Origin: Thermoplasmata archaeon
GTDB taxonomy: Archaea > Thermoplasmatota > E2 > DHVEG-1
Length of the DNA: 63,144 bases
Assembly: GCA_003942085.1 (NCBI GenBank)
Contig: DQIQ01000004.1
Location: forward strand, 1-63,144
Direction of reading: 5' to 3'
Notes under the pieces: model-generated
What the model was told of the DNA's origin: nothing
The model's input: the letters and a program-made list of their open reading frames with translations, nothing else
Database searches by the model: none
Translations under genes and position numbers: made by a program
Shown: positions 10,211-26,270 of the stretch, one piece after another
How positions within the stretch are numbered: the stretch's first letter is position 1
Layout: each line of letters begins with the position of its first letter

Positions 10211-10705
10211 TTATTGTTTAGACAAGAAGTCATCGACATCCTTAATAAATTCCAATGTCCCGCACTCTATTTGTTTTGTTAAAGTATCTAAATTACTAAA
10301 ATCTGGGTTGTCAACTAAAATGTTCTCCATGATAGAATCAACGCCTTTTGTAGTTGATGGAATGCGGTATTTCTTCCAGTCACTTTCTTTAAACAATTTC
10401 CAATATTTTGTTTGAACCGTTTTATTATATCCTGCTAACCATACCTCAAATTTAAAGGTGTCATGACAAAAAACGATTGCAATTTTCAATTTTTTTCTTT
10501 TTAATGATGCAGGAAAAAAGGAAAAATATGTCATGTCCATATATCCATAATAAATACTCCCAGATACAAAATAATCAGGATATTTGTTTTTAAAATACGT
10601 TCTCAAATCCATGATATATTTCATTAATCCTTTATATGCTTCTTTGATGTCTCCTTTCTTCATCTGTTTTCTATATTCATCGACATATTCATGAAATGGT
10701 TTCAT
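10211..10705 (-). CDS. conserved hypothetical cytoplasmic protein
   Basis: 164-aa ORF with good coding character and no TM. No family could be named confidently from the sequence. Confidence 0.5.
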   Translation of the reverse strand: MKPFHEYVDEYRKQMKKGDIKEAYKGLMKYIMDLRTYFKNKYPDYFVSGSIYYGYMDMTYFSFFPASLKRKKLKIAIVFCHDTFKFEVWLAGYNKTVQTKYWKLFKESDWKKYRIPSTTKGVDSIMENILVDNPDFSNLDTLTKQIECGTLEFIKDVDDFLSKQ

Positions 10706-10727
10706 CCGTAAGATCCTCCATCCTAAG

Positions 10728-10758
10728 ATAGATTATTTACTCATAAATCTGTTCTTTT
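10728..10758 (-). promoter_or_regulatory. shared upstream element (copy B) before the 164-aa gene
   Basis: atagattatttactcataaatctgttctttt lies 23-53 nt upstream of the ATG at 10705. Similar to 10102-10132. Confidence 0.3.
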
Positions 10759-10837
10759 TATAGATAGACCGTATAGAAATGTTCAAATCAGCTTTGATAT
10801 TTCTTTACAGAGTAATTCAGTAGGTCGTAGGAAAACA

Positions 10838-11287
10838 ATGAACAAAAAAAGTATGAATGTTGTGATACGCAGGATGATTCTAAAGGATTATGACGCGGTG
10901 ATTGCTCTTTGGAAAAAAGGGAGCATACCGTACAGACCACAGGGCCGTGATAGTAAAAAAAATATCGGCCGACAATTACAACAACCAACAAGTCTATACT
11001 TTATAGCGGAGAACGAAAGAAGAATTATCGGAGTAATTTTAGGCACACATGATGGACGAAAAGGATGGATCAATCGACTCGTCGTTACTCCGGTGTATCA
11101 ACAGAAAGGGATCGCAAAACAATTGGTTGAAGAAGTTGAACATCACCTTGCAGGCTTAGGAATCGATATTACGGCTTGCCTCATCGAAGATTGGAACAGC
11201 ACATCAATGCAAGTGTTTGAACGGTTAGGATACAAGAAACATACCGATATACTATACTTCTCCAAAAGAAAAAATATTAAGATATAG
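10838..11287 (+). CDS. GNAT family N-acetyltransferase
   Basis: 149 aa. Acetyl-CoA motif A is present: RLVVTPVYQQKGIAKQLVEEVE (Q/RxxGxG/A-like). Confidence 0.75.
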   Translation: MNKKSMNVVIRRMILKDYDAVIALWKKGSIPYRPQGRDSKKNIGRQLQQPTSLYFIAENERRIIGVILGTHDGRKGWINRLVVTPVYQQKGIAKQLVEEVEHHLAGLGIDITACLIEDWNSTSMQVFERLGYKKHTDILYFSKRKNIKI

Positions 11288-11399
11288 GAAGTTAGATACT
11301 ATTTTACCGGTATTTTGTTGGTCAAATCCAGACAACCCCACCGTATTGTTTCGGTCATCCCCCATATAGCTATAAATAGCGAAATTCTATCATAGACGG

Positions 11400-11675
11400 G
11401 TGATGGGAAAACGAGCGGTAACCAAAAAAACCGATGTACTGTCTGCTTCAGAGATCGGCCAGTTCACCTATTGTGCACATGCTTGGCTCTTGCAGCGCTG
11501 CGGGTATACCGCTGAGTCTCCGTTTCTGGAACCAGGGAAACAGGCGCATATCGCCTTGGGTGACACCATCGATGGACTTGAAGAAAAGATGCGGTATTCG
11601 CGATGGTATATCCTTCTTGGTCTTGCAGTATTGTTCATAGGATTTCTTTTTGTATTCTTCGAGGTGATCCTATAG
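11400..11675 (+). CDS. Cas4/DUF83-family nuclease, N-terminal fragment (Cys helix plus first TM helix)
   Basis: SASEIGQFTYCAHAWLL matches the N-terminal Cys context of Cas4-type PD-(D/E)xK nucleases. The ORF ends within the hydrophobic stretch ILLGLAVLFIGFLFVFF. Confidence 0.5.
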   Translation: MMGKRAVTKKTDVLSASEIGQFTYCAHAWLLQRCGYTAESPFLEPGKQAHIALGDTIDGLEEKMRYSRWYILLGLAVLFIGFLFVFFEVIL

Positions 11676-12208
11676 AGTTACTTGTTTTTGGTCTCGTGCT
11701 TCTGATTGGTGCAATCATTATCTTTGCGTATGCATCAAAGATCCGACGTTCCGTACGGGCAAAGAAGAAATCATGTGGGATCCCTAAGGGCATGATTCTG
11801 TATTCTGATCTGAATGTTCCCGCAGCACCGCTGTTCTCGAGTCGTTCCCGTCTTACAGGAAAACCAGATTACATCGTACGAAAAGACGACCATTTCCTCC
11901 CGGTAGAAGTAAAAACAGGAGGCGGACAGCATCCTCATCATAGCCAGGTGCTCCAGCTTGCAGTGTATTGTCAACTGCTTGAAGAGACCACAGGGGCGTT
12001 TGTCCCCGAGGGCATTCTTGTCTATAATAATGTACCCTATACTATTCCGTTTGACCCGAAATTACGCTTCGAGCTCGAATCGGTGATAAAACGCATGCGT
12101 AGCTGCCTGCGCAGTGGTGTCGTTCAAAGGAATCATCAGGAGCAAAAGCGGTGTACGCATTGTTCGATGAGACAGTATTGTAATGATGTTGTTCCGGATG
12201 GTCCATAA
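11603..12208 (+). CDS. Cas4/DUF83-family nuclease, C-terminal fragment (second TM helix plus PD-(D/E)xK core)
   Basis: Lies in the -1 frame relative to 11400-11675. Has the TM LLVFGLVLLIGAIIIFAYA, then GKPDYIV, PVEVK, QLAVYCQLL and the C-terminal CTHCSMRQYC. The true start is unclear because the ORF overlaps the upstream fragment. Confidence 0.55.
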   Translation: MVYPSWSCSIVHRISFCILRGDPIELLVFGLVLLIGAIIIFAYASKIRRSVRAKKKSCGIPKGMILYSDLNVPAAPLFSSRSRLTGKPDYIVRKDDHFLPVEVKTGGGQHPHHSQVLQLAVYCQLLEETTGAFVPEGILVYNNVPYTIPFDPKLRFELESVIKRMRSCLRSGVVQRNHQEQKRCTHCSMRQYCNDVVPDGP

Positions 12209-12263
12209 TTCCATAAAAATAATATACTTATCTTGTATTGTAACCAAACCATCAGAGAACGCT

Positions 12264-13229
12264 ATGGGATATAGTATGAAGAAAGGGCATGGCATCGGAT
12301 TCGGTAAGGCTATCTTGTTTAACGAACACTTTGTCGTCTATGGGATTCCGTCGATTGTGTCGGCAATCGGGAACCACACGGTTGCGAAGATCGAACCCTA
12401 TGACCACGTAGGATTTTCACTTGCGGATAAACGACTTGCAACACCGAAATATAAGGAGGACAAGCTTTCTCAGCAGAAGGAATCCTTTGAGCTTATGTTC
12501 AAGAAAATGGGTATCGATTTATCAAAGAACGGAGTATCCATCACCCTGGAAGGTAATCTCTATGCGGCTAGTGGGATCGGTGCCTCAGCAGCATCGTGTG
12601 TCGCAGTCGCTAGAGCACTTGCTGAATATTTCGATATGAATCTTTCCGATGAAGAGATCAACGATATTGCCTATGAGGGTGAAAAAGGGTATCATGGGAC
12701 GCCGTCTGGCGTAGACAATACCGCGTCGACGTATGGCGGGTTGATCTGGTTCCAGAAAGGTGACAAGAATGTCATTGATCGCATTCCTCTGTTAAATCCT
12801 GTTGAGATCGTGATCGGGAACACCGGAAAGGTGACCGATACGAAAGCAGCGGTTGATGGCGTCAAGCAGCGAAAAGAGAAAAACCCGAAGAAGTACCAGG
12901 AGGTTTTTGACCGAGCTGAGAACATCGCGTATCTGGCGAAACGGGCGATCCAGGATCGATCCTTTCCGAATGTCGGCAAGCTGATGAATGAGAACCATAA
13001 GCTGCTGCAGCAAATCGAGGTGTCGTCACGGGAATTGGATTTCCTGGTCAGTATCGCGCGGGACGCGGGTGCCTTGGGCGCGAAGCTCACCGGTGGCGGC
13101 CTGGGAGGCAACATGCTTGCACTCACCCCTGGAAAAGAGCTGCAGAACAAGGTAGCAAATGCGATTGAAAAAGAAGGTTTCCAGACCGTGAAAACCGTGA
13201 TCGGTGCATCGCGGGAGAGTGTGGAGTAA
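12264..13229 (+). CDS. mvk: mevalonate kinase (GHMP kinase)
   Basis: GKAILFNEHFVVYGIPSIV N-terminal motif, GHMP motif ASGIGASAASCVAVARAL, and KLTGGGLGG near the C-terminus. The ATG at 12264 (or 12276) is preferred over the ORF-track start at 12183. Confidence 0.8.
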   Translation: MGYSMKKGHGIGFGKAILFNEHFVVYGIPSIVSAIGNHTVAKIEPYDHVGFSLADKRLATPKYKEDKLSQQKESFELMFKKMGIDLSKNGVSITLEGNLYAASGIGASAASCVAVARALAEYFDMNLSDEEINDIAYEGEKGYHGTPSGVDNTASTYGGLIWFQKGDKNVIDRIPLLNPVEIVIGNTGKVTDTKAAVDGVKQRKEKNPKKYQEVFDRAENIAYLAKRAIQDRSFPNVGKLMNENHKLLQQIEVSSRELDFLVSIARDAGALGAKLTGGGLGGNMLALTPGKELQNKVANAIEKEGFQTVKTVIGASRESVE

Positions 13230-16075: not shown

Positions 16076-17260
16076 ATGTATCTTTCAAAAGAAGAAGAAA
16101 AAATACTCCATGGTGAACAAGGCGAAGTCCCGGAACGCATGCTTCGCTTGCTCACCCAGCTTGGTGACATCTACGGTGCTGACAAGATGATCCCAGTCGG
16201 ATCAGTCCAAGTCGCTGGTGTCTCCTATAAATCCATCGCTGACCCAGGAACCGAGTTCCTCGAAGACCTTGCCGCGAAAGGCGCAAAAGTAAAAGTCCTT
16301 ACTTTCCTCAACCCGGCAGGGATGGACCTTGAGAACTGGGAGAAACTCAAGTTCCCAAAGGAGTTTGCAAAAAACCAGCTCCGCATCATGGATGCTTTTA
16401 AAAGCATGGGCATCGTGATCACCGCGACCTGCACGCCTTATCTTGCGGGAAACCTACCGCGATTTAGAGAGCATATCGCCTGGTCAGAATCCAGTGCTAT
16501 TTCATTTTCAAACTCGGTCATCGGGGCACGAACCAATCGTGAAGGCGGACCTTCTGCTCTTGCCGCTGCAATCCTAGGAAAAACACCGAACTACGGGCTC
16601 CACATCTGGGAAAACCGGCAGCCCACCATCAAAGTCAAGATAGAAACAGACCTTATCTTCGATGCGGACTACGGCGCACTCGGCTACCATGTCGGCAAAC
16701 AAATCAAAAACAAAATACCGTATTTCACCGGCATCAAAAACGCGGATACCGACCAGCTCAAATCACTTGGTGCAGCCATGGCGGCATCCGGTGCTGTTGC
16801 CCTCTACCACATCGAAGGACTCACCCCTGAGGCAGACCTGGTTAAAAAAGACCACCTTGAAACGATCACGGTTACAAAAAAAGAGCTTGACGAGGCGTAC
16901 GCAAAACTCAATACCGGCAAAGAACCGGACATCGTCATCCTCGGCTGCCCGCACGCATCCTTACGAGAGATAGGCTCAGTTGCGGAGAAGCTCAAAGGAA
17001 AACATCTCAGAAAACCAGTCTGGGTGTGCACCTCACGGATGATGAAAGAGGCAGCAGACCGCATGGGATATTCCGATATCATAGAAAAAGCAGGGGGACA
17101 CATCGTCGCAGACACCTGCATGGTCGTCTCACCCATCGAAGATATGGGATATAAAACCACTGGGGTCAACAGCGGTAAGGCAGGGAACTATCTTCCCGGG
17201 TTCTGCAAACAAAACGTGTGTTTTGCTAATCTTGATAAACTCCTGGAGGCAGTAGCATGA
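16076..17260 (+). CDS. aconitase X catalytic domain protein (DUF521); phosphomevalonate dehydratase large subunit
   Basis: 394 aa. MYLSKEEEKILHGEQGE...QVAGVSY and the Cys-containing blocks are typical of AcnX. ATGA overlap with the next ORF. Confidence 0.8.
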   Translation: MYLSKEEEKILHGEQGEVPERMLRLLTQLGDIYGADKMIPVGSVQVAGVSYKSIADPGTEFLEDLAAKGAKVKVLTFLNPAGMDLENWEKLKFPKEFAKNQLRIMDAFKSMGIVITATCTPYLAGNLPRFREHIAWSESSAISFSNSVIGARTNREGGPSALAAAILGKTPNYGLHIWENRQPTIKVKIETDLIFDADYGALGYHVGKQIKNKIPYFTGIKNADTDQLKSLGAAMAASGAVALYHIEGLTPEADLVKKDHLETITVTKKELDEAYAKLNTGKEPDIVILGCPHASLREIGSVAEKLKGKHLRKPVWVCTSRMMKEAADRMGYSDIIEKAGGHIVADTCMVVSPIEDMGYKTTGVNSGKAGNYLPGFCKQNVCFANLDKLLEAVA

Positions 17261-17643
17261 TGAAAGGAAGGACCATCTCGCCAGGGAAAGCCAAGGGGAT
17301 CGCATTAGTCTCAAAGGAACCGATCGGGTTCTACGGCGGCATCAACATCAAAACCGGTATCGTGATAGAGAAAGGCCATCCTCTTGAGGGAAAGAACGTC
17401 AAAGATAAGATTTTGGTCTTTCCCTGCGGCAAAGGTTCCACCGTCGGCTCCTATGTAATTTACGGGCTGCAGAAGAACGGTGTTGCCCCGAAAGGAATCA
17501 TCAACAAAGAAACAGAGACCATTGTCGCAACCGGGGTCATCCTCGCCGGCATCCCTTGTGTCGATAAGATCGATATTGATCAGATCAAAGACGGGGACAC
17601 AGTGGTCTTAAACGCTGATAATGCGACCATCGAAGTCGCATAG
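17257..17643 (+). CDS. aconitase X swivel domain protein (DUF126); phosphomevalonate dehydratase small subunit
   Basis: 128 aa with GKAKGIALVSKEPIGFYGGIN and VFPCGKGSTVGSYV motifs. Translationally coupled to the large subunit. Confidence 0.8.
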   Translation: MMKGRTISPGKAKGIALVSKEPIGFYGGINIKTGIVIEKGHPLEGKNVKDKILVFPCGKGSTVGSYVIYGLQKNGVAPKGIINKETETIVATGVILAGIPCVDKIDIDQIKDGDTVVLNADNATIEVA

Positions 17644-17648
17644 TAACC

Positions 17649-18941
17649 TCACAGCAACGCACGCATGTTCCATGAAACACCAATTCCATGCACAGGGACA
17701 TTATGGTCACCATCATCATCAGTCCAGGATATCGTCCCATCAATTGTGCAATACCCGATCTTCATCCCCAGATACGAGGGGAACTTCCATATTTTGTTGG
17801 TGGCATGGGTAATGGAGATATCTCCACTTAGCGATGTTTTCGTCCCATACAAAAGGGATTGACTGATCACATACAGCGGATTGATGCTAGGGTCTGCCTT
17901 GAGGCTGAACGCAGCCGGAAGTTTCACCAGCGGGAACACTTTTTCATCCTTCGCCGTGATTTTCAGATTCACGTCCTTAAGCTCGGTAAGACTTACTCCG
18001 CGATCGGTCGTAATCAAAAGAGTGCCGAACGGATCCAGTTTTGATAACGCCTGGGAGATTGCTTGGGGACTGGGAAGATAGTTTGCCGCGTAGATGTTCC
18101 AACCATTATCCAGGCTTAGAGAGAACCAGTCCCAGCCGCCTATCGATAATCTCCGGATCGCATTTGGAGTCCAGGAATGTTCATGAGACCCTGATCCCTT
18201 CACCGTGTAGGTTTGTCCATCGATGATGACTGTTCCAGAGACATCACAGCCGAGCAGCACATAGTTCGCAACCTCACTGTCGGATTTATCCACTACTCGT
18301 GAACCGAGAGCCCACACCGGCAGCGACCGGGCTGTATAATCCAGATCGATCACAATCTGTTGTGCGGCATCGACATCAGCACCTTCAGCATGCACATGCC
18401 AGCGTGGATAGGTTCCTTCCGCCCAGGAGTTCTCAAACTCGACCTTCACCCCAGGAGTACCAGCAATGAGAGTTCCTTCCTTAAGGAGCCCCAGATAATG
18501 CTCCTTGTTGACCATCCCGCCATAGGTTTCACTGTTATTTCCCAGGAGGCTGACGACAAGCAGGTCGGGTTTATTGGTCCCGAGCAGATCACCTCGAGCC
18601 ATATGATTAAAGCTCACGGCGACCGCCCAGTCCTTCAGCTGACTGGTGCTGTCATTAAAAACCGCGTTGAAATACCACCATTCCCGGGAGATACGCAACT
18701 CGTCGAAATGCACTCCTTCATCCTGCGCTGAGACATCGCGACGGTATGCTGGGATAAGAGACGTCGGTGGAGTCGGAAGTTTCACCGGTGGCAGAATGGT
18801 GGTTGTATTGTCACCAGAATCTTGTGGAGTCTGACCATCAGATGGCAGGAACGAACTGATATAATCTGCCTTGTAGAAAAAAAGCGTAGAAATTACGATG
18901 AGTGCTACGATGATGATCGTATCAATCTTTCTGAATTTCAT
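17649..18941 (-). CDS. membrane-anchored CrtC/AttH-like (lipocalin-fold) protein
   Basis: N-terminal TM (IIIVALIVISTLFF). Blocks REWWYFNAVF, GSGSHEHSWTP and WDWFSLSLDNGWNIY resemble the hydroxyneurosporene synthase/AttH family. The ATG at 18941 is preferred. Confidence 0.5.
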   Translation of the reverse strand: MKFRKIDTIIIVALIVISTLFFYKADYISSFLPSDGQTPQDSGDNTTTILPPVKLPTPPTSLIPAYRRDVSAQDEGVHFDELRISREWWYFNAVFNDSTSQLKDWAVAVSFNHMARGDLLGTNKPDLLVVSLLGNNSETYGGMVNKEHYLGLLKEGTLIAGTPGVKVEFENSWAEGTYPRWHVHAEGADVDAAQQIVIDLDYTARSLPVWALGSRVVDKSDSEVANYVLLGCDVSGTVIIDGQTYTVKGSGSHEHSWTPNAIRRLSIGGWDWFSLSLDNGWNIYAANYLPSPQAISQALSKLDPFGTLLITTDRGVSLTELKDVNLKITAKDEKVFPLVKLPAAFSLKADPSINPLYVISQSLLYGTKTSLSGDISITHATNKIWKFPSYLGMKIGYCTIDGTISWTDDDGDHNVPVHGIGVSWNMRALL

Positions 18942-19085
18942 TCTCCACCAAACGATATCGTTATACAGTGCTTCTGACAGGAGGATATTAATAGTTTCTT
19001 GTACAAGCGGTACCCTTTTGGCACGCGCGCATATTTTTATTAATACAGTGAACAATTACCCTCAACCACGTGCGGAGGCAGCGGT

Positions 19086-19601
19086 ATGATAGAAAAACGC
19101 GATATTGAGAACTGTTTTTCAGAGCTTTCCTGGATACAAAACAAAGACCTCAGAAAAAAGGTCGTAGACGTATGGAAAATCGCTGCTGATCGCGGAGGAT
19201 GGAAGCAGCTTCAGGAAATCCCGTTTACTCTTCTTTTTGAGAACTCAGGGCCTCTTGTCGACCATACGAAAAGGATAACAAAACTAGCATGGACCGTGGT
19301 CAATGCAAGGGATGAGCCTCTCAATAAGGATCATTTGATCGCTGGTGCATTGCTTCATGATGTCGGCAAACTTCTTGAATATGAGATGAAAGCCGGAAAA
19401 ATCGTCAAAAGCAGCTTTGGGGAAAAAACACGCCATCCTGCTGCTGGTGCTCAGCTTGCCGAGGAATATAAGCTTCCTAAGGAAGTCGTCCATATCATCG
19501 CTGCACATAGTCATGAGGGAGACACAATGAATCGGTCACCTGAGGCAATCATTGTTCATCATTGTGATTTTATAGACTTTGAAATCAAAAAAAGGAAGTG
19601 A
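19086..19601 (+). CDS. HD-domain metal-dependent phosphohydrolase
   Basis: 171 aa with H..HD motif GALLHDVGK and a downstream HSHEGD. Confidence 0.7.
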   Translation: MIEKRDIENCFSELSWIQNKDLRKKVVDVWKIAADRGGWKQLQEIPFTLLFENSGPLVDHTKRITKLAWTVVNARDEPLNKDHLIAGALLHDVGKLLEYEMKAGKIVKSSFGEKTRHPAAGAQLAEEYKLPKEVVHIIAAHSHEGDTMNRSPEAIIVHHCDFIDFEIKKRK

Positions 19602-19605
19602 CACA

Positions 19606-21102
19606 ATGAAGGTGAAGAACGCTGCAGGCAGAACAGTTGAAACAACGATTGCGGGTACCACCTTCAAACCATTTACAGGAGCACGGAAGTACGGGTTTGC
19701 TTCAAAACTAACCACCCTGGAAAAAGCGCTGAAGGACTGCCGGTTGAAAAACGGCATGACGGTTTCTTTTCATCATCAGCTCCGTAACGGGGATTTTGTG
19801 GTGAACCAGACGCTTGCTGCAATCAAAGAGCTGGGGGTAAAAGATATTCGCCTTGCACAAACCGCGTTATTCACGGTCCATCAGCCAGTCATTGAATATA
19901 TCAAAGAAGGGATCGTCACCAGAATCGAAGGAAGTCTGAATGACACGGTCGGGGATTTTGTCTCGAAACATCCACTGAAAAGCCCGGTCATCCTGCGGTC
20001 GCATGGAGGTCGGTGGGCAGCAGTAAAAACCGGGGAGCTGCACGTTGATATCGCAGTCATCGCTGCATCAGTTGCAGATGAACGTGGAAACTGCACGGGT
20101 CTTGTTGGAAACAGCGCATTTGGTCCTATTTCGTATTCACAGGTCGATGCGATGCACGCGGACCATGTGATCGTCGTTACGGATAACGTCGTGGAGTACC
20201 CCTGCAAGCCACAAGAAATCACGGAGCGATACGTGGATTATGTCGCACAAATTGACCAGATTGGTGACCCAAAACAGATCGTCTCAGGATCCTTGAAGAT
20301 CACCGATGACTCTGAGAAACTCAATATTGCTCGACAATGTGTTGACCTGATGGATGCGGTTGGACTGATAAAAGACGGTATGGTGTTTCAATCGGGTTCT
20401 GGCGGTATATCGCTTGCCGCAGTCAAGTACCTCGGGGAGCGGCTTGAAGAGAAAAACGTCGTTGCTGCCTGTGCGACCGGGGGGTTAACAAAATTCATTA
20501 TTGATATTTACAAGGCTGGTCGTGTCAAAAAAATGTATTACTCGCAGGTGTTTGACACCGAATCGATACAGTTCATCCAAAATGACCCAAGCATGCCTGC
20601 TGACATCGGGCATTATGCAGACCCGACATCAAAGGGACGGACCGCAGACAGCCTTGATGCCGTGGTCCTCGGGGCAACCGAGGTTGATGTCCGCTACAAC
20701 GTCAACGTCAACACGCATAGCGACGGACGTCTGTTGCATGGTATTGGCGGTCATCAGGACACCGCAGCTGGTGCTGACCTTACGATTATCACTACTCCAA
20801 TCTTTAGGAAAACAAACCCGATCATCCGGGAGAATGTCACTACCATCACGACACCTGGATCCGTTATTGATGCGGTGGTGACGAACCGAGGGATCGCGAT
20901 AAACCCGATACGAAAAGACTTTCTTAAGAAGATAAAAGGCACGATTGACACGGTTCCGATAGAGGAGCTAAAACGTATGGCGTACGATGCCACCGGTACA
21001 CCACAGGAACCGCATCTCGGCGACGAGATCATCGGGATCATCAAATGGTTCGATGGAACGGTTTTAGACATGGTGCGGGTGGTCAAAGAGGAGAGCCCAT
21101 GA
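19606..21102 (+). CDS. citF: citrate lyase alpha subunit-like CoA/ACP transferase (CitF family)
   Basis: SFHHQLRNGDFVVN and the GSGGIS block are typical of CitF. GGAAGTGA precedes the ATG at 19606. Confidence 0.7.
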   Translation: MKVKNAAGRTVETTIAGTTFKPFTGARKYGFASKLTTLEKALKDCRLKNGMTVSFHHQLRNGDFVVNQTLAAIKELGVKDIRLAQTALFTVHQPVIEYIKEGIVTRIEGSLNDTVGDFVSKHPLKSPVILRSHGGRWAAVKTGELHVDIAVIAASVADERGNCTGLVGNSAFGPISYSQVDAMHADHVIVVTDNVVEYPCKPQEITERYVDYVAQIDQIGDPKQIVSGSLKITDDSEKLNIARQCVDLMDAVGLIKDGMVFQSGSGGISLAAVKYLGERLEEKNVVAACATGGLTKFIIDIYKAGRVKKMYYSQVFDTESIQFIQNDPSMPADIGHYADPTSKGRTADSLDAVVLGATEVDVRYNVNVNTHSDGRLLHGIGGHQDTAAGADLTIITTPIFRKTNPIIRENVTTITTPGSVIDAVVTNRGIAINPIRKDFLKKIKGTIDTVPIEELKRMAYDATGTPQEPHLGDEIIGIIKWFDGTVLDMVRVVKEESP

Positions 21103-21869
21103 AGTGGAAAACCTCGATTTCTAAGATAGAACCGAATCATATTATGACCAAAGGGTACCGACAGGAGGATCTCATTGGGAACGTCCCCTTTCCTCATGTG
21201 GTGTACCTCTTGTTGAAAGGAACGCTCCCGACACAGGAGCAAGGGAATATGGTTGATGCAATCCTTACCTCATGTATCGATCATGGCCTCACGCCACCGT
21301 CATCTATCGCATCCCGGACCGTCGCATCTGGCGGAGTCCCTTTACCTACTGCGGTCGCTGCAGGGATTCTCTCGATCGGGGATGCCCATGGTGGCGCGAT
21401 AGAAAAAGGGGCAAAAATCCTCCAAGAAGGCGTTCTTCAGATGAAAAAAGAAGGAAAATCTGCGGATTTGATAGCAGCAGCCCTGGTGAAGGAAAGCAAT
21501 GAGCAGAAGAAGCGGATCCCCGGGTTTGGTCATCGAATCCATACTGCGGACCCTCGGACAAAAAGGTTATTTGAACTGGCTGAAGAGCTCAAAATAGCAA
21601 AGGACCATGTTGCCCTTTGCCAGGCCATTGAAACCGCACTTGAGAAATCCCAGGGAAAAAAACTTCCGATTAATGTGGATGGCGCGATCGCCGCGATCAT
21701 CTCTGACATGGGCTTTGACTGGCGTTTAGGCAAAGCATTCTTTTTGCTTGGCAGGGTCGCAGGGCTCACCGCACAGGTTTACGAAGAACAGACCCAGGAA
21801 AAACCGATGCGTGAGATGTTTACGATTGATTATGATTATGTCGGCCCGGGGGAAAAAAACCTCCCCTAA
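21099..21869 (+). CDS. citryl-CoA lyase-like protein (short citrate-synthase family)
   Basis: ~256 aa with DHGLTPPS, GDAHGGA and GFGHRIHTADPR, the citrate synthase active-site blocks without the large N-terminal domain. ATGA overlap with the citF stop. Confidence 0.65.
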   Translation: MKWKTSISKIEPNHIMTKGYRQEDLIGNVPFPHVVYLLLKGTLPTQEQGNMVDAILTSCIDHGLTPPSSIASRTVASGGVPLPTAVAAGILSIGDAHGGAIEKGAKILQEGVLQMKKEGKSADLIAAALVKESNEQKKRIPGFGHRIHTADPRTKRLFELAEELKIAKDHVALCQAIETALEKSQGKKLPINVDGAIAAIISDMGFDWRLGKAFFLLGRVAGLTAQVYEEQTQEKPMREMFTIDYDYVGPGEKNLP

Positions 21870-21985: not shown

Positions 21986-23305
21986 ATGAAGATACTATTG
22001 GTGTTTCCAAGAATCGAGCATGGAGCCTCAACATATTCAGATAAAGGTTCGTGGGCATCCCTACTGCTCGGCTATGCGGTCATCACGTTACCTCATATTG
22101 CAGGGATTACTCCTCGCCAGCATTCGGTGACCATCGTAGATGAGAACTACGAGGACATAGATTTTTCTGCAGACGCAGACTTGATAGGAATCACTTGCTA
22201 CACGATGACGGCTCCCCGTGTGTATGAGATAGCTGATGAGTTCAGACGACGGGGTAAAAAGGTGGTCCTGGGTGGATATCATCCCACGGCGATGCCAGAA
22301 GAAGCAACCCAGCACGCAGACAGTATCTTGCGTGGTGAGGTCGAATTGACCTGGCCTCAGATGCTACAGGACGCTGAACAAGGGAAGATGAAAACGATTT
22401 ATGAGGCAAACCCTGATTTTGACATGGCCCTGATTCCACCGATCCGCCGAGACCTCATTCGACATAACCCTTTCATCGGAGCGGTGCAGACTTCTCGGGG
22501 ATGCCCGAACCGCTGTGAGTTCTGCGCAATAACCAGTTTCTGTCAACATGGCGTGAAGCACCGACCGATCAAGAATGTCATAGAGGAAATGAAACAAATC
22601 CCAAACTCAGTGTTCATCATTCATGATCCAAGCCTCACCATCAACCCTCCATATTCCCGAGAGTTATTTCAAGAGATGATCAAGCACAAAATAAAGAAAG
22701 GATGGATCGCGAATGGGAATGCCAATGTGCTGGGGAAAATCGACGATGAGTTCCTCTGTCTCGCCAGGAAATCCGGATGCGTCGAATGGTTCGTCGGGTT
22801 TGAATCCATAAGCCAAGCGTCTTTGAACGGCATTAAAAAAACCGTAAACAAGGTTGAGGATTTCAAACGCATGATTAAACGTGTTCATGACCATGGGATG
22901 ACCGTTCAAGGTGGCATAATCTTTGGATTTGATCAAGACACCCCAGATATTTTTGAGACCACTTTGGAAAAGGTCAAAGAATGGGGACTTGACTGCTTAG
23001 AGGTAAACATTCTCACTCCGTACCCCGGTACCCCCTTGTTTGACCGTTTGGAAAAAGAAGGAAGGATTCTGACGAAAGACTGGTCACGCTACAATCAAGT
23101 AGACGTCGTGTATCAACCCAAACAAATGACTCCACAGGAGCTCATAGAAGGCTCCCGGATGGTCGCAAAGCAGTATTATACCATGACAAACGTGATGTTC
23201 CGGGCGCTAAAGATCCTTGCAATCACACGGAAGCGTGCTGGATTGGTCCCCGCGGGAACGAACTACACATTCCGAAGATACTACAAACGAGATTTCCATA
23301 TCTAG
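21986..23305 (+). CDS. B12-binding-domain radical SAM protein (class B)
   Basis: N-terminal cobalamin-binding-like Rossmann region (KILLVFP...IGITCYT...VVLGGYHPT). CxxxCxxC motif in TSRGCPNRCEFCAI. Confidence 0.8.
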   Translation: MKILLVFPRIEHGASTYSDKGSWASLLLGYAVITLPHIAGITPRQHSVTIVDENYEDIDFSADADLIGITCYTMTAPRVYEIADEFRRRGKKVVLGGYHPTAMPEEATQHADSILRGEVELTWPQMLQDAEQGKMKTIYEANPDFDMALIPPIRRDLIRHNPFIGAVQTSRGCPNRCEFCAITSFCQHGVKHRPIKNVIEEMKQIPNSVFIIHDPSLTINPPYSRELFQEMIKHKIKKGWIANGNANVLGKIDDEFLCLARKSGCVEWFVGFESISQASLNGIKKTVNKVEDFKRMIKRVHDHGMTVQGGIIFGFDQDTPDIFETTLEKVKEWGLDCLEVNILTPYPGTPLFDRLEKEGRILTKDWSRYNQVDVVYQPKQMTPQELIEGSRMVAKQYYTMTNVMFRALKILAITRKRAGLVPAGTNYTFRRYYKRDFHI

Positions 23306-23325
23306 CTTATAGACAAAATAGATCA

Positions 23326-24645
23326 TCAGGCGCTGTTCACAATCAATTTGAATTTCCCTGTTTTCTCATCGAGGGGAAGATCGTTGACGACTTTCACGCT
23401 GTACGTCACATTGGTGAATTTTTTCTCCGCGAGGATTCGATCGAGTTCTTGTCGTATGCGCTGCTCTACCAGTACGTGGTCTCCGTTGATAACCGCTCGA
23501 AATTCAAATGATGTTTTGTCTTTTATCGCGAATTGGAGTTTCTCTAGTCCGCTGACATAAAATTCTGCAATCACGATAGGATGGATAAAGTCCATGACTC
23601 CCTCGCGGTTCTGTAACCAGATCATGGATTCCGATCGTCCGATGATATTATCGACGAAGGTGAAAGGCAGGATCTTCCGCTGGTCTTTTTTCAGGTTGAA
23701 CATATCATTGATTTTGTAGCGAATCAAAGGCTGGGTATAGTTAAAGAGGTTTGTTATGAGGGCATACTCGTCCTTGAATTCTATCAGACATAAATCATCC
23801 ATGAGGTACATACCATCGTATTCCCGTTTTCCTGTTCCAAGGACCGGGCATTCCGCAAGACCGTAGTTATTGGTCATGGGCGCGTGAAACGCTTCTTCAA
23901 TGCCCTCCTGGTCTTTAGGGATAATCCCTTCACCGCAATTCACCACGATTCGAGGATGGATCTGTAGATTACCTTGTTTTTGTTGTTTAGCAAGGATTGT
24001 TAATCCAGTGAAATATCCGCCGAGGATGTCCGGCTGGAAGATATTTAGCCTCTTGACATGGTCCTGCAACGGTTTTGTGATATCAAGGATCAGAGGATCG
24101 CAAAAAAATCCGATGACGCCGCGTCGACACCAGGCGGTGAAACTCACCCCTGTAAAATGACCGGTGGTTGCACCATAAAACACAGATTTGCTTTTATGGA
24201 ACCCTAAATCAGACACCCGTATGATATAGGGGAAAAACCGGTCCCAGTCATTGCCCGCGTAGACAAACATCCCTATTTTTCCGGATGACCCTGAGGTATG
24301 CAGCACATGATATTTTCCGAGATACAGATCATTTGGGTCTCTGTTTTCCTGGATGAACTTCTGAACGCCTTTTTTTGTCACATCACGTTGGGTCATCACC
24401 TCATCAAAGTGCTCCATGAGAATGTCTTTATCAACGATCGGGAGGTCTTCGATGTCGACGGTCTTTATTGACTCTGAAGTAATACCAGCCGACGTATACA
24501 AATCATGATAAAAACGCGAATGTTGGAACGCGTGCTGAAGTAATGCACGGAATTTTTTTTGCTGGAGGCGAAGAATATTCTCACGGGATTTCTTTTCGTT
24601 TCTGCGCATCGCAAGATAACTTCGTACTAGGGTAAACGTGCTCAT
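23326..24645 (-). CDS. PaaK/coenzyme F390 synthetase-like adenylate-forming ligase (paralog 1, divergent)
   Basis: 439 aa with P-loop-like AMP motif HTSGSSGKIGMFVY and the ANL-superfamily layout. Confidence 0.65.
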   Translation of the reverse strand: MSTFTLVRSYLAMRRNEKKSRENILRLQQKKFRALLQHAFQHSRFYHDLYTSAGITSESIKTVDIEDLPIVDKDILMEHFDEVMTQRDVTKKGVQKFIQENRDPNDLYLGKYHVLHTSGSSGKIGMFVYAGNDWDRFFPYIIRVSDLGFHKSKSVFYGATTGHFTGVSFTAWCRRGVIGFFCDPLILDITKPLQDHVKRLNIFQPDILGGYFTGLTILAKQQKQGNLQIHPRIVVNCGEGIIPKDQEGIEEAFHAPMTNNYGLAECPVLGTGKREYDGMYLMDDLCLIEFKDEYALITNLFNYTQPLIRYKINDMFNLKKDQRKILPFTFVDNIIGRSESMIWLQNREGVMDFIHPIVIAEFYVSGLEKLQFAIKDKTSFEFRAVINGDHVLVEQRIRQELDRILAEKKFTNVTYSVKVVNDLPLDEKTGKFKLIVNSA

Positions 24646-24875
24646 ACGACCCGACTTTCCATTGCCAGAATGAAATAACCGAGGTTTTTTTTATACCTTT
24701 TGCCTTCAATATTGATTGGACCTTTGTTGTATATGATTTAGGAGCGTCCTCGCATACGGCGCAAACAGCTGGCTGCCATAAAATTATCTAAGGAAAGAAT
24801 GAGGCACTACATGAAAAAAGCATAAATGTTTATAACCAGAAAATGATTTCTGCCAGTGACAGGAGTACAACAGCA

Positions 24876-26270
24876 ATGAATCCATTTTTCGACCCGGTGT
24901 TTTACCTCCGTCTTGCGAAAAGTTATCTTTCAGATATCAACCGAGTCTGGCATACTGATCTGCAGCAGCTGAAAAAATATCAAGACCAGGCGTTTCGTCA
25001 GATGGTACGGTACGCGTATACGGTCCCTCTGTATCATCAAAAATACAAGGCCAACAATATTCATCCCAGTGATATCAAAGGGACGAGCGATGCTTTGAAG
25101 CTGCCCTGTATCACCAAAGACGACCTTAAAACACATTATCCTGTCGGGATTATTCCAAAAGGATATGATACGTCCAAAGGGTTTCAAGTGAGCACCTCCG
25201 GGTCGACCGGAAAACCAGTACGCATCTATTTCGATGTTTTCAGTGCGATAAAAGGTTTGGAAGGGTTTGTCAGGGAACTGCGTACCTATGGAGGGAACTG
25301 GCAGCGTTCACGGGTAATGCTCATCATTGAAAACCATCCGGGTAGCTTTGAGCATGCACTCTTCTCCGGAAGCGTGCTACCGTTCCTGAATCATTTCATC
25401 TCTCTGAAGAACATCCGCTACATTCACATTAGTGAAAAACCAGAAACTATTATGAAGCAGATAAACGAGTTTCAACCGGAGTTCCTCGGTTCTGATCCGA
25501 ATATGTTACGACAGCTTGCATTTTTAAAGGAACATGGAGAAGCACCTGATCTTCACCCCACCACGCTACTTTCTGGTGCCGCAATGCTTGATAGTTACAC
25601 CAGGCGATATGTTGAACAAGCATTCGGTGCAACCTTGTATGATACCTACGGGGCGACCGAAGCAGGACCGATCGCGTTCGAATGTATCGACAAGGGTATG
25701 TACCATGTTCATTCAGATTTTGTGTTCCTTGAGTGTCTCGATGATGATAATACCCCGGTTGCTCCAGGAGAAATCGGACGTGCGGTGGTAAGCCGCCTCT
25801 ATGGTGGAGGGACGCCGATTATCAGATACACCGGAATTGAGGACCTGGTCACCCCTGCTGAGGCAAAGTCGTCATGTGGGATTACCACGGAGATGATTCA
25901 ACACATTGGAGGAAGGTCAACCGACCTCTTCATTTTGCCAAACGGTTCCTTTATGTCACCGCTCATCGTCACAGGCATTCCGGCTGAGACCATGGAGCAT
26001 TTCCATTCGTATAAGATACAACAGTTCCAAATCGTTCAGCAAAGCAAAAATGAAATCGAGGTTTTCGTCGTCATTGACAGCCACCTCAGGAATGTCGGTG
26101 TCCCAATAAATGAACTTTTCTCGGAGATGAAAAAACGGTTTACCCAGGCTATTGGTCTAGGGGTCGAAATCAAGATTACTGAGACCGATGAAATCCAGCC
26201 TGGCGTCGCATCAGATCATGTCAAGGTAGCGATTTCAAAAGTGCACGATCCGGCCAAAAAATTACATTAA
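24876..26270 (+). CDS. PaaK/coenzyme F390 synthetase-like adenylate-forming ligase (paralog 2)
   Basis: VPLYHQKY, STSGSTGKPVRIYFD and YDTYGATE motifs. Clear paralog of 35909-37312. The ATG at 24876 (MNPFF) is preferred. Confidence 0.7.
   Translation: MNPFFDPVFYLRLAKSYLSDINRVWHTDLQQLKKYQDQAFRQMVRYAYTVPLYHQKYKANNIHPSDIKGTSDALKLPCITKDDLKTHYPVGIIPKGYDTSKGFQVSTSGSTGKPVRIYFDVFSAIKGLEGFVRELRTYGGNWQRSRVMLIIENHPGSFEHALFSGSVLPFLNHFISLKNIRYIHISEKPETIMKQINEFQPEFLGSDPNMLRQLAFLKEHGEAPDLHPTTLLSGAAMLDSYTRRYVEQAFGATLYDTYGATEAGPIAFECIDKGMYHVHSDFVFLECLDDDNTPVAPGEIGRAVVSRLYGGGTPIIRYTGIEDLVTPAEAKSSCGITTEMIQHIGGRSTDLFILPNGSFMSPLIVTGIPAETMEHFHSYKIQQFQIVQQSKNEIEVFVVIDSHLRNVGVPINELFSEMKKRFTQAIGLGVEIKITETDEIQPGVASDHVKVAISKVHDPAKKLH

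What the first reader, a model, noticed from the sequence alone, without database searches (positions are those of the whole stretch)
19086..21869. HD / CitF / citryl-CoA-lyase-like operon: a hybrid citrate-cleavage (or thioester-conserving citrate synthase) system lacking CitD and CitE
The HD phosphohydrolase ends 4 nt before a CitF-family transferase. The CitF stop overlaps (ATGA at 21099-21102) the start of a ~256-aa short citrate-synthase-family protein of the citryl-CoA lyase type (GDAHGGA, GFGHRIH).

Classical citrate lyase needs CitD (ACP) and CitE. Classical CCL partners with citryl-CoA synthetase. Neither partner is present here.

CitF acting as an acetyl-CoA:citrate CoA-transferase, plus CCL, would give ATP-independent citrate <-> oxaloacetate + acetate with acetyl-CoA recycled. 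In reverse it would be a two-step citrate synthase that conserves the thioester.
Basis: partly seen in the sequence, partly recalled or inferred. Interest (0 to 1): 0.6.

Follow-up and report, generated by a model that had tools for sequence, protein, structure and literature searches.

The report
Carrier-free, ATP-free citrate lyase operon
An uncultured sediment archaeon (Thermoplasmatota, MBG-D type) couples the CoA-transferase of bacterial citrate lyase to the citryl-CoA lyase of the reverse Krebs cycle, which probably interconverts citrate with acetate plus oxaloacetate without ATP or a carrier protein, a combination I found in no paper.

Summary
HD phosphohydrolase (19086-19601), CitF (19606-21102) and a 256-aa citryl-CoA lyase (CCL, 21099-21869) form a tightly coupled three-gene operon, with a 4-nt gap and an ATGA overlap.

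- CCL matches the solved citryl-CoA lyase 6HXP end to end and keeps the catalytic His/His/Asp.
- CitF matches Salmonella CitF (1XR4).
- CitD, CitE, CitC, CitG, CitX and a CCS-type ligase were not found in the genome (82.9% complete).
- CitD was not found in 53 genomes of the family.

The same operon slot behind the same HD gene holds three other cassettes:
- a CitD-CitE fusion plus CitF in a sister family;
- CitF plus a full-length citrate-synthase-like protein in others;
- an ATP-dependent CcsA-like protein plus a CcsB-citrate-synthase fusion in 12 of the 25 sampled genomes of this family. The other 13 have CitF-CCL. None has both.

The two cassettes switched at least twice within the genus.

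In the 32 Thermoplasmatota CitD homologues aligned, none has the prosthetic-group serine (Lys, Glu or Arg instead). CitX was found in 0 of 401 genomes.

The direction (cleavage or thioester-conserving synthesis) and the role of HD remain open. A canonical ATP-citrate lyase operon lies elsewhere in the genome.

This scan has already noted the same pair in at least 21 other genomes.

The parts
19032..19045 (+). A/T-rich TATA-box-like element (TTTTTATTAATA) about 40-50 nt upstream of the HD start. It is the likely archaeal promoter of the operon and may also serve the divergent gene.
   Evidence: Read directly. The promoter function is inferred and was not tested.
19086..19601 (+). HD-domain metal-dependent phosphohydrolase, 171 aa. 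It is the first gene of the operon. Its substrate is unknown.
   Evidence: PF01966 51.7 bits and TIGR00277 HDIG 48.6 bits. H60, H91-D92, H117, H141 and D161 are invariant in 43 orthologues. The AlphaFold model has pLDDT 96. The best fold match is the HD domain of YhaM, 9h3f, TMq 0.73; all other matches are generic HD hydrolases. The gene is translationally coupled to every cassette type at this slot.
19606..21102 (+). CitF homologue, 498 aa: citrate lyase alpha subunit / citrate CoA-transferase, EC 2.8.3.10.
   Evidence: PF04223 448 bits over the full length. TIGR01584 501.4 bits against a cut-off of 501.45. 390 bits to Salmonella CitF 1xr4, residues 36-494. It is the only CitF copy in the genome.
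21099..21869 (+). Citryl-CoA lyase, 256 aa: short citrate-synthase-family protein, EC 4.1.3.34. Its start overlaps the CitF stop (ATGA).
   Evidence: NF004869 301.7 bits and NF004866 299.5 bits, both above cut-off. 242.7 bits, E 3.7e-71, residues 3-256, to PDB 6hxp 'Citryl-CoA lyase'. H97, H145 and D194 are invariant in 45 orthologues and align with the catalytic His, His and Asp of E. coli GltA.

Best explanation
The three genes are one operon. It encodes a citrate lyase that works through free CoA thioesters, with no acyl carrier protein, no prosthetic group and no ATP.

Step 1 (inferred from family membership and from the known in-vitro activity of EC 2.8.3.10): CitF transfers CoA from acetyl-CoA to citrate, giving (3S)-citryl-CoA and acetate.

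Step 2 (inferred from close similarity to the characterised citryl-CoA lyase): CCL splits citryl-CoA into oxaloacetate and acetyl-CoA, which is recycled.

The net reaction is citrate <-> acetate + oxaloacetate, with acetyl-CoA as catalyst. The module is reversible in principle. I lean slightly towards cleavage, roughly 55:45. In relatives it is coupled to aconitase and isocitrate dehydrogenase genes, not to a citrate transporter, so its citrate is probably an internal TCA-branch intermediate.

Energetically the cassette equals the ATP-dependent CCS/CCL-type cassette plus an ADP-forming acetyl-CoA synthetase. That would explain why the two cassettes replace each other at this locus.

The co-translated HD phosphohydrolase is a constant companion of every variant, and its role is unknown.
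For: 1. Identity of the parts. CCL is an end-to-end, high-scoring relative of the solved citryl-CoA lyase, with the catalytic triad kept. CitF matches solved CitF.

2. Coupling. There is an ATGA overlap and a 4-nt gap. HD-CitF-CCL is conserved in about 50 loci.

3. Missing classical partners.
- No CitD or CitE.
- No hits for E. coli CitC, CitE, CitG, CitX or CitT, and none for a CcsA-like query.
- The only ATP-grasp_2 match is AclB.
- CitD in 0 of 53 genomes of the family.

4. Slot equivalence.
- In the same order, up468-HD-[CitD-CitE fusion]-CitF.
- In other lineages, HD-CitF-[349-360-aa citrate-synthase-like protein].
- In 12 of the 25 sampled family genomes, the identical slot (AcnX, up468, HD, X, rSAM) holds a 427-aa SucC/CcsA-like protein plus a 715-aa CcsB-like/citrate-synthase fusion. 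The other 13 hold CitF-CCL. None has both and none has neither.
- On a tree of the flanking genes the two cassettes are interspersed, with at least 2 switches forced by well-supported branches.

5. CitF tree. All CitFs partnered with a citrate-synthase-family protein form one clade (SH-aLRT 98). The CitDE-linked ones are basal when rooted on E. coli CitF.

6. The lineage already looks free of a prosthetic group.
- In 32 Thermoplasmatota CitD homologues, the residue aligned to E. coli CitD Ser14 is Lys (23), Glu (5) or Arg (4), never Ser or Thr.
- CitX was found in 0 of 401 genomes of the phylum, against CitD in 62.

7. Free acetyl-CoA is a listed substrate of EC 2.8.3.10 (table in PMC8085960).
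Against: - There are no biochemical data for this pair.
- The CitF score sits 0.05 bits below the NCBIfam equivalog cut-off.
- The genome also has a canonical ATP-citrate lyase in an aconitase-IDH-AclB-AclA operon, so a second citrate module looks redundant and could act on an analogue.
- The genome is only 82.9% complete, so absences are provisional.
- Nothing tested here settles the direction.
- The attachment of the prosthetic group at Ser14 of CitD is taken from my own knowledge of the Klebsiella/E. coli literature. I could not retrieve a paper to confirm it.
Confidence: 0.65

Rival explanations
1. The same two enzymes normally run in reverse, as a two-step citrate synthase that conserves the thioester. 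CCL condenses oxaloacetate and acetyl-CoA to citryl-CoA. CitF then passes the CoA to acetate. The net reaction is oxaloacetate + acetate -> citrate, feeding aconitase and IDH for 2-oxoglutarate and glutamate synthesis.
For: - No canonical citrate synthase was found in any of the 25 family genomes. All PF00285 matches are of the CCL, fusion or AclA type, whereas G037 of another family has a 428-bit canonical enzyme.
- No succinyl-CoA synthetase-like gene was found in this genome, so a reductive route to 2-oxoglutarate looks incomplete.
- In relatives the operon continues into aconitase and IDH genes, for example L081.
- ATP-citrate lyase is known to run in the synthase direction in Desulfobacter postgatei (Moller et al. 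1987, cited in PMC8085960).
Against: - The reaction has a standard free energy near zero and joins two molecules into one. At millimolar acetate and micromolar oxaloacetate the equilibrium citrate level is very low (my inference from textbook values).
- The ACL operon, which itself carries aconitase and IDH, is an equally good candidate for the synthase role.
- These archaea are regarded as peptide degraders that can obtain glutamate directly (PMC6461988).
Confidence: 0.2
2. The pair acts on a citrate analogue rather than citrate, for example 2-methylcitrate with propionyl-CoA, or citramalate. It would be a separate pathway from the canonical ATP-citrate lyase.
For: - The genome already has an ACL.
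- The CitF score is just under the equivalog cut-off.
- The citrate synthase family includes 2-methylcitrate synthases, which appear as weak hits.
- The neighbouring aconitase-family genes in relatives could be dehydratases of another substrate.
Against: - CCL is a close, full-length relative of the citryl-CoA lyase solved as 6hxp and passes two citryl-CoA lyase NCBIfam models.
- The alternative cassettes at the slot are of the citrate-lyase type (CitDE) and the CCS/CCL type.
- An IDH-family gene follows in L081.
Confidence: 0.08
3. The adjacency is not a functional pairing. CCL would serve an ATP-dependent citryl-CoA synthetase or the ACL encoded elsewhere, and CitF would be a CoA-transferase with another job. 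Alternatively this is a classical citrate lyase whose CitD and CitE lie in the unassembled 17% of the genome.
For: - The genome is incomplete, 82.9%.
- Orphan CitF copies without a lyase neighbour exist in some relatives: L073 and L076.
Against: - The start/stop overlap and the conservation across about 50 loci.
- CitD was not found in 53 family genomes, including several that are 94-97% complete.
- CitD and CitE were not found in the single-contig genome G023 or in G004.
- No CCS-like gene was found in this genome.
Confidence: 0.05

Closest known systems
Bacterial citrate (pro-3S)-lyase CitDEF with CitC, CitG and CitX (EC 4.1.3.6; E. coli, Klebsiella)
   Same: The CitF alpha subunit is homologous: 390 bits to Salmonella CitF. 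The overall chemistry is the same: acetyl thioester + citrate -> citryl thioester + acetate, followed by lyase cleavage to oxaloacetate. It is ATP-independent.
   Different: There is no CitD carrier, no CitE lyase, and none of the activation and cofactor genes CitC, CitG and CitX. The lyase step is taken over by an unrelated fold, the citrate synthase family. The thioester carrier must therefore be free CoA.
Citryl-CoA synthetase / citryl-CoA lyase (CcsAB + Ccl) of Hydrogenobacter thermophilus (reductive TCA cycle; Aoshima et al. 2004, cited in PMC1403158)
   Same: CCL is a close, full-length homologue of the solved citryl-CoA lyase 6hxp. Free citryl-CoA is the intermediate.
   Different: Citryl-CoA would be made by CoA transfer from acetyl-CoA (CitF), not by an ATP-dependent ligase. 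The products are acetate plus oxaloacetate, not acetyl-CoA plus oxaloacetate. That 6hxp is the Hydrogenobacter enzyme is from my memory of Verschueren et al. 2019; the tool shows only the molecule name.
ATP-citrate lyase (AclBA) and the postulated 'type II' ACL / CCS-CCL fusions (mentioned in PMC3362086)
   Same: Congeners carry a CcsA-like protein plus a CcsB-citrate-synthase fusion at exactly this slot. The window's genome has a canonical AclBA elsewhere. All of these work through citryl-CoA and a citrate-synthase-fold lyase.
   Different: The window's cassette has no ATP-grasp and no CoA-ligase domain. Its lyase is the short 256-aa form. That form keeps the first catalytic His (GDAHGGA), which AclA lacks (GPRFGGA).
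Reversible citrate synthase of the reversed oxidative TCA cycle (Desulfurella, Thermosulfidibacter; discussed in PMC9802188 and PMC12743299)
   Same: It is another ATP-independent way to split citrate using the citrate synthase fold.
   Different: That route uses a single full-length citrate synthase and yields acetyl-CoA directly from citrate plus CoA. Here there are two proteins, a CoA-transferase step, and acetate as the product.

Membership tests
CitF, citrate lyase alpha subunit / citrate CoA-transferase (EC 2.8.3.10) | Full-length match to the CitF family model | tested here: met
   PF04223, 448.3 bits, profile positions 6-466 of 466. 390 bits to solved Salmonella CitF 1xr4.
CitF, citrate lyase alpha subunit / citrate CoA-transferase (EC 2.8.3.10) | Passes the NCBIfam equivalog cut-off (TIGR01584) | tested here: inconclusive
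   501.4 bits against a cut-off of 501.45.
CitF, citrate lyase alpha subunit / citrate CoA-transferase (EC 2.8.3.10) | Transfers CoA (or the ACP-bound analogue) from an acetyl thioester to citrate | not testable with these tools
   This needs an enzyme assay. Free acetyl-CoA is a listed substrate of the EC class (PMC8085960).
Classical citrate lyase complex CitDEF (EC 4.1.3.6) | CitD acyl carrier protein bearing the phosphoribosyl-dephospho-CoA group on Ser14 | tested here: not met
   No PF06857 match in the genome or in 53 family genomes. CitD homologues elsewhere in the phylum have Lys, Glu or Arg at the Ser14 position.
Classical citrate lyase complex CitDEF (EC 4.1.3.6) | CitE beta subunit (HpcH/HpaI fold citryl-ACP lyase) | tested here: not met
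   No PF03328 match in G000, G004, G023 or G030. No tblastn hit with E. coli CitE or with the archaeal CitDE fusion.
Classical citrate lyase complex CitDEF (EC 4.1.3.6) | Cofactor and activation genes CitG, CitX and CitC | tested here: not met
   CitG and CitX were not found. CitX was found in 0 of 401 genomes of the phylum. E. coli CitC, CitG and CitX give no tblastn hit.
Citryl-CoA lyase, CCL (EC 4.1.3.34; short citrate synthase family) | Passes the curated citryl-CoA lyase models and matches the solved enzyme end to end | tested here: met
   NF004869, 301.7 bits (cut-off 212). NF004866, 299.5 bits (cut-off 245). 6hxp_A, 242.7 bits, query residues 3-256 against chain residues 5-253.
Citryl-CoA lyase, CCL (EC 4.1.3.34; short citrate synthase family) | Catalytic His, His and Asp of the citrate synthase active site | tested here: met
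   H97, H145 and D194 are invariant in 45 orthologues. They align to the GPAHGGA, GFGH and NVD motifs of E. coli GltA. That these are the catalytic residues rests on textbook knowledge.
Citryl-CoA lyase, CCL (EC 4.1.3.34; short citrate synthase family) | Short architecture lacking about 100 residues of full-length citrate synthases | tested here: met
   256 aa. The Pfam match covers profile positions 9-56 and 167-355 only. The gap is visible against the 360-aa partner forms and against GltA.
CCS/CCL system of the reductive TCA cycle | ATP-dependent citryl-CoA synthetase (CcsA/CcsB) supplying citryl-CoA | tested here: not met
   A CcsA-like query finds nothing in the genome. A CcsB-like query finds only CCL and AclA. 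AclB is the only ATP-grasp_2 match. Congeners do carry such a cassette at this slot, in place of CitF-CCL.

The most novel reading that the evidence does not exclude
Free-CoA, carrier-less citrate lyase chemistry may be the rule for the whole phylum Thermoplasmatota, not only for this operon. Its CitD homologues have lost the cofactor serine and no CitX was found, so CitD would survive only as a structural or regulatory subunit. On that background the lyase subunit was swapped from CitE to citrate-synthase-fold proteins, and the CoA-transferase (CitF) is exchanged back and forth with an ATP-dependent ligase. The always co-translated HD phosphohydrolase would then be a new, required component of citryl-CoA metabolism, for example acting on a CoA-derived phosphoester.
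Probability: 0.3. Interest if true: 0.75.

Novelty: new variant of a known kind. Interest (0 to 1): 0.62.

Why it matters
Citrate cleavage is the step used to read the direction of the TCA cycle from genomes. The accepted routes are ATP-citrate lyase, CCS/CCL, classical CitDEF and reversible citrate synthase. A fifth route, CitF plus CCL through free citryl-CoA, is invisible to marker-gene schemes. Depending on the annotation, CCL alone is scored as reverse-TCA autotrophy or as citrate synthase.

The route sits in MBG-D/Thermoprofundales-type archaea, among the most abundant archaea of anoxic sediments. It therefore affects how their carbon metabolism (amino-acid fermentation, acetate production, possible CO2 fixation) is modelled.

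The repeated in-place exchange between an ATP-dependent cassette and a CoA-transferase cassette is also a clean natural case of non-orthologous displacement that can be tested in vitro.

Tried and rejected
- Complex prediction on CitF + CCL, with alignments of 45 rows each, gave no verdict: score 0.00, mark 0.32. It says nothing for or against binding.

- Literature searches found no paper describing the pair. Search terms were CitF + citryl-CoA lyase; citrate CoA-transferase + citryl-CoA lyase; Thermoprofundales + citrate lyase; citryl-CoA lyase + Thermoplasmat*; and citryl-CoA + CoA-transferase + archaea. Reading searches found none either. The main MBG-D genome paper does not mention citrate.

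- I could not retrieve a source for Ser14 of CitD.

- The search for homologous proteins with CCL returned only close Thermoplasmatota relatives (at least 73% identity). Sources name them 'citryl-CoA lyase' or 'citrate synthase'. This was of no use for distant distribution.

- HD function stayed open. The atlas search gave only generic HD clusters. The fold search gave the YhaM HD domain and generic HD hydrolases. No substrate can be named.

- Citrate transporters were not informative. There is no 2HCT and no DASS above cut-off. There is one unlinked permease of the broad CitMHS superfamily at C18:30875-31942.

- I considered and down-weighted an ATP-yielding cycle: ACL running backwards plus CitF-CCL running forwards, which would give acetyl-CoA + ADP + Pi -> acetate + ATP. 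With the ATP-dependent cassette that replaces CitF-CCL in congeners, the same cycle would be futile.
Full report
**Observation**

- HD: 19086-19601.
- CitF: ATG at 19606, 4 nt after the HD stop; ends at 21102.
- CCL: a 256-aa citrate-synthase-family protein whose ATG (21099) overlaps the CitF stop as ATGA.

Each ORF has a Shine-Dalgarno-like motif. An A/T-rich TATA-like box lies at 19032-19045 upstream of HD. A TTTATAA box lies just upstream of the next gene, a B12-radical SAM gene starting at 21986. I therefore read a three-gene operon. This is taken from the sequence, and the promoter functions are inferred.

Family scores:
- HD: PF01966.
- CitF: PF04223, 448 bits over the full length. TIGR01584 gives 501.4 bits against a cut-off of 501.45.
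- CCL: the citryl-CoA lyase models NF004869 and NF004866, both well above cut-off.

**Organism**

Record titles of the closest loci name uncultured Thermoplasmatota / 'Thermoplasmatales archaeon' MAGs such as SM1-50, SG8-52-3 and M11B2D. These are the Marine Benthic Group D / Thermoprofundales kind of sediment archaea. The genome held is 2.02 Mb in 135 contigs and 82.9% complete.

**The parts themselves**

- CCL matches the solved 'Citryl-CoA lyase' 6hxp end to end: 242.7 bits, E 3.7e-71.
- H97, H145 and D194 are invariant in 45 orthologues. They align with the catalytic His, His and Asp motifs of E. coli citrate synthase.
- CCL is therefore not a decayed citrate synthase. It has the normal short CCL architecture, lacking about 100 residues that the full-length forms have.
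- CitF matches Salmonella CitF 1xr4 with 390 bits and is the only CitF in the genome.

**Missing partners**

- No CitD or CitE.
- No CitG or CitX.
- No tblastn hit for E. coli CitC, CitE, CitG, CitX or CitT, for an archaeal CitDE fusion, or for a CcsA-like ligase.
- The only ATP-grasp_2 match is AclB.
- CitD and CitE were also not found in the single-contig relative G023, nor in G004 (94% complete) and G030.
- CitD was not found in 53 genomes of the family.

**Comparative anatomy: the main evidence**

The order up468, HD, CitF, CCL, rSAM is kept through the genus and family. Among 80 Thermoplasmatota loci anchored on CitF, the lyase partner falls into classes.

(a) HD-CitF-CCL, in about 50 loci. 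It is followed either by the radical SAM gene or by a fused aconitase of 583-586 aa.

(b) HD-CitF plus a full-length citrate-synthase-like protein of 349-360 aa. In L081 this continues into aconitase large and small subunits and an IDH-family gene.

(c) A CitD-CitE fusion, or separate CitD and CitE, followed by CitF. In G025 and G033 of the same order this sits behind the same up468 and HD genes.

(d) CitF overlapping an aconitase large-subunit-like gene, with HD-CitDE nearby in L097.

A CitF tree rooted on E. coli places the CitDE-linked CitFs basally. All CitFs partnered with a citrate-synthase-family protein form one clade (SH-aLRT 98). Long and short lyase forms are intermixed inside that clade. 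The root rests on a single long outgroup branch.

**Exchange with an ATP-dependent cassette**

Within the window's own family, 13 of the 25 sampled genomes have CitF-CCL. The other 12 have a 716-718-aa frame with a full citrate-synthase domain instead (split in G018). None has both and none has neither.

The loci show the identical slot: AcnX, up468, HD, X, rSAM. In these 12 genomes X is two proteins:
- a 427-aa SucC/CcsA-like protein (ATP-grasp_2 + Ligase_CoA);
- a 715-aa fusion of a CcsB-like part (CoA_binding + Ligase_CoA) with a citrate-synthase-like domain.

This is an ATP-dependent enzyme of the CCS/CCL or 'type II ACL' kind.

On a tree of the flanking genes (1078 columns, 12 genomes) the two cassettes are interspersed. 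At least two switches are forced by well-supported branches. The window's nearest flanks belong to a genome with the ATP-dependent cassette.

**No prosthetic group in the phylum's CitD homologues**

E. coli CitD carries its cofactor on Ser14. This is from my own knowledge, and I found no retrievable source.

In 32 Thermoplasmatota CitD homologues, both stand-alone and fused to CitE, the aligned residue is Lys (23), Glu (5) or Arg (4). It is never Ser or Thr.

CitX was found in 0 of 401 sampled genomes of the phylum, while CitD was found in 62. MdcG-type transferases were not searched.

I infer that the lineage's CitF already worked with free CoA thioesters before CitE was displaced. EC 2.8.3.10 is listed as accepting free acetyl-CoA (PMC8085960).

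**Mechanism and direction**

The most likely mechanism has two steps. Both are inferred.
- CitF makes citryl-CoA from citrate and acetyl-CoA.
- CCL splits citryl-CoA to oxaloacetate and acetyl-CoA.

The direction is open.
- No dedicated citrate transporter is linked to the operon, and the conserved neighbours are aconitase and IDH. The citrate is therefore internal.
- The genome also has an aconitase-IDH-AclB-AclA operon next to an AMP-forming acetyl-CoA synthetase.
- ACL was found in 20 of the 25 family genomes.
- No canonical citrate synthase was seen in any of the 25.
- In G006, G012 and G019, CitF-CCL is the only citrate-synthase-family enzyme found.

Energetically, CitF-CCL equals the ATP-dependent cassette plus an ADP-forming acetyl-CoA synthetase. 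That makes the exchange neutral in either direction (my inference). I lean slightly towards cleavage, for example 2-oxoglutarate from amino acids -> isocitrate -> citrate -> acetate + oxaloacetate. A thioester-conserving synthase role remains a serious rival.

**The HD protein**

HD is co-translated with every cassette type, with 4-14-nt overlaps or gaps. Its H, HD, H, H, D ligand set is invariant and it folds confidently. Only generic HD relatives were found. Its role is unexplained.

**Novelty**

I found no paper describing CitF with CCL. Public annotation calls the protein 'citryl-CoA lyase' or 'citrate synthase'.

This scan has already noted the same pair in at least 21 other genomes, with the same reading. 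I re-tested the key points here.

The system is a new combination of two known enzyme systems. I class it as a new variant of a known kind.

Noticed in passing
G000 contig C54:2604-8938 (locus L005), minus strand: An operon of aconitase (646 aa), isocitrate dehydrogenase (411 aa), AclB (425 aa, with the citrate-binding domain) and AclA (613 aa). An AMP-forming acetyl-CoA synthetase lies nearby at 10367-12352. This is a canonical ATP-citrate lyase in the same genome as the CitF-CCL operon.
   Followed up: partly
L107:4286-7704, L110:3818-7236, L109:6410-9828 (congeners G014, G008, G024): At the exact slot of CitF-CCL, behind the same HD gene, these genomes carry a 427-aa SucC/CcsA-like protein and a 715-aa CcsB-like/full citrate-synthase fusion. 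This is an ATP-dependent enzyme of the 'type II ACL' kind.
   Followed up: yes
L108:6082-8225 (G018:C10): Here the CcsB-citrate-synthase fusion is split. A 503-aa frame ends inside the citrate-synthase domain and a separate 259-aa frame carries the rest. This is a frameshift, an assembly error or a real split gene.
   Followed up: no
L125-L154, L019:3865-4160, L086:4864-5130: All 32 Thermoplasmatota CitD homologues examined have Lys (23), Glu (5) or Arg (4) at the position of the cofactor-bearing Ser14 of E. coli CitD, mostly within an AGTxxK motif. CitX was found in 0 of 401 genomes of the phylum. What these CitD domains do is unknown.
   Followed up: partly
L087:5938-8702, L018:3820-6527, L090, L092, L093, L095, L096, L099, L101: In another Thermoplasmata clade, CitF is translationally coupled to a 392-aa aconitase large-subunit-like protein with no small subunit next to it. 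In L097, HD-CitDE lies about 2 kb upstream.
   Followed up: partly
L073:1806-3296 and L076:3654-5150: Second, orphan CitF copies (61-63% identical) occur in genomes that also have the HD-CitF-CCL operon (L044, L046). They sit next to a sulfotransferase or a papain-family peptidase and have no lyase partner.
   Followed up: partly
window 16076-17643 (+): Aconitase X large and swivel subunits (PF04412 532.7 bits, PF01989 112.2 bits). These are probably the archaeal mevalonate-pathway dehydratase rather than a TCA enzyme. They are conserved upstream of the slot in congeners.
   Followed up: no
window 17649-19055 (-): A divergently transcribed protein of about 430-468 aa with one N-terminal hydrophobic helix. 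It has no Pfam match itself. Orthologues give a weak DUF7065 hit. It is conserved next to HD down to order level.
   Followed up: no
window 21986-26270: A B12-binding radical SAM protein followed by two PaaK/F390-synthetase-like ligases. The citrate operon sits between it and the AcnX genes.
   Followed up: no
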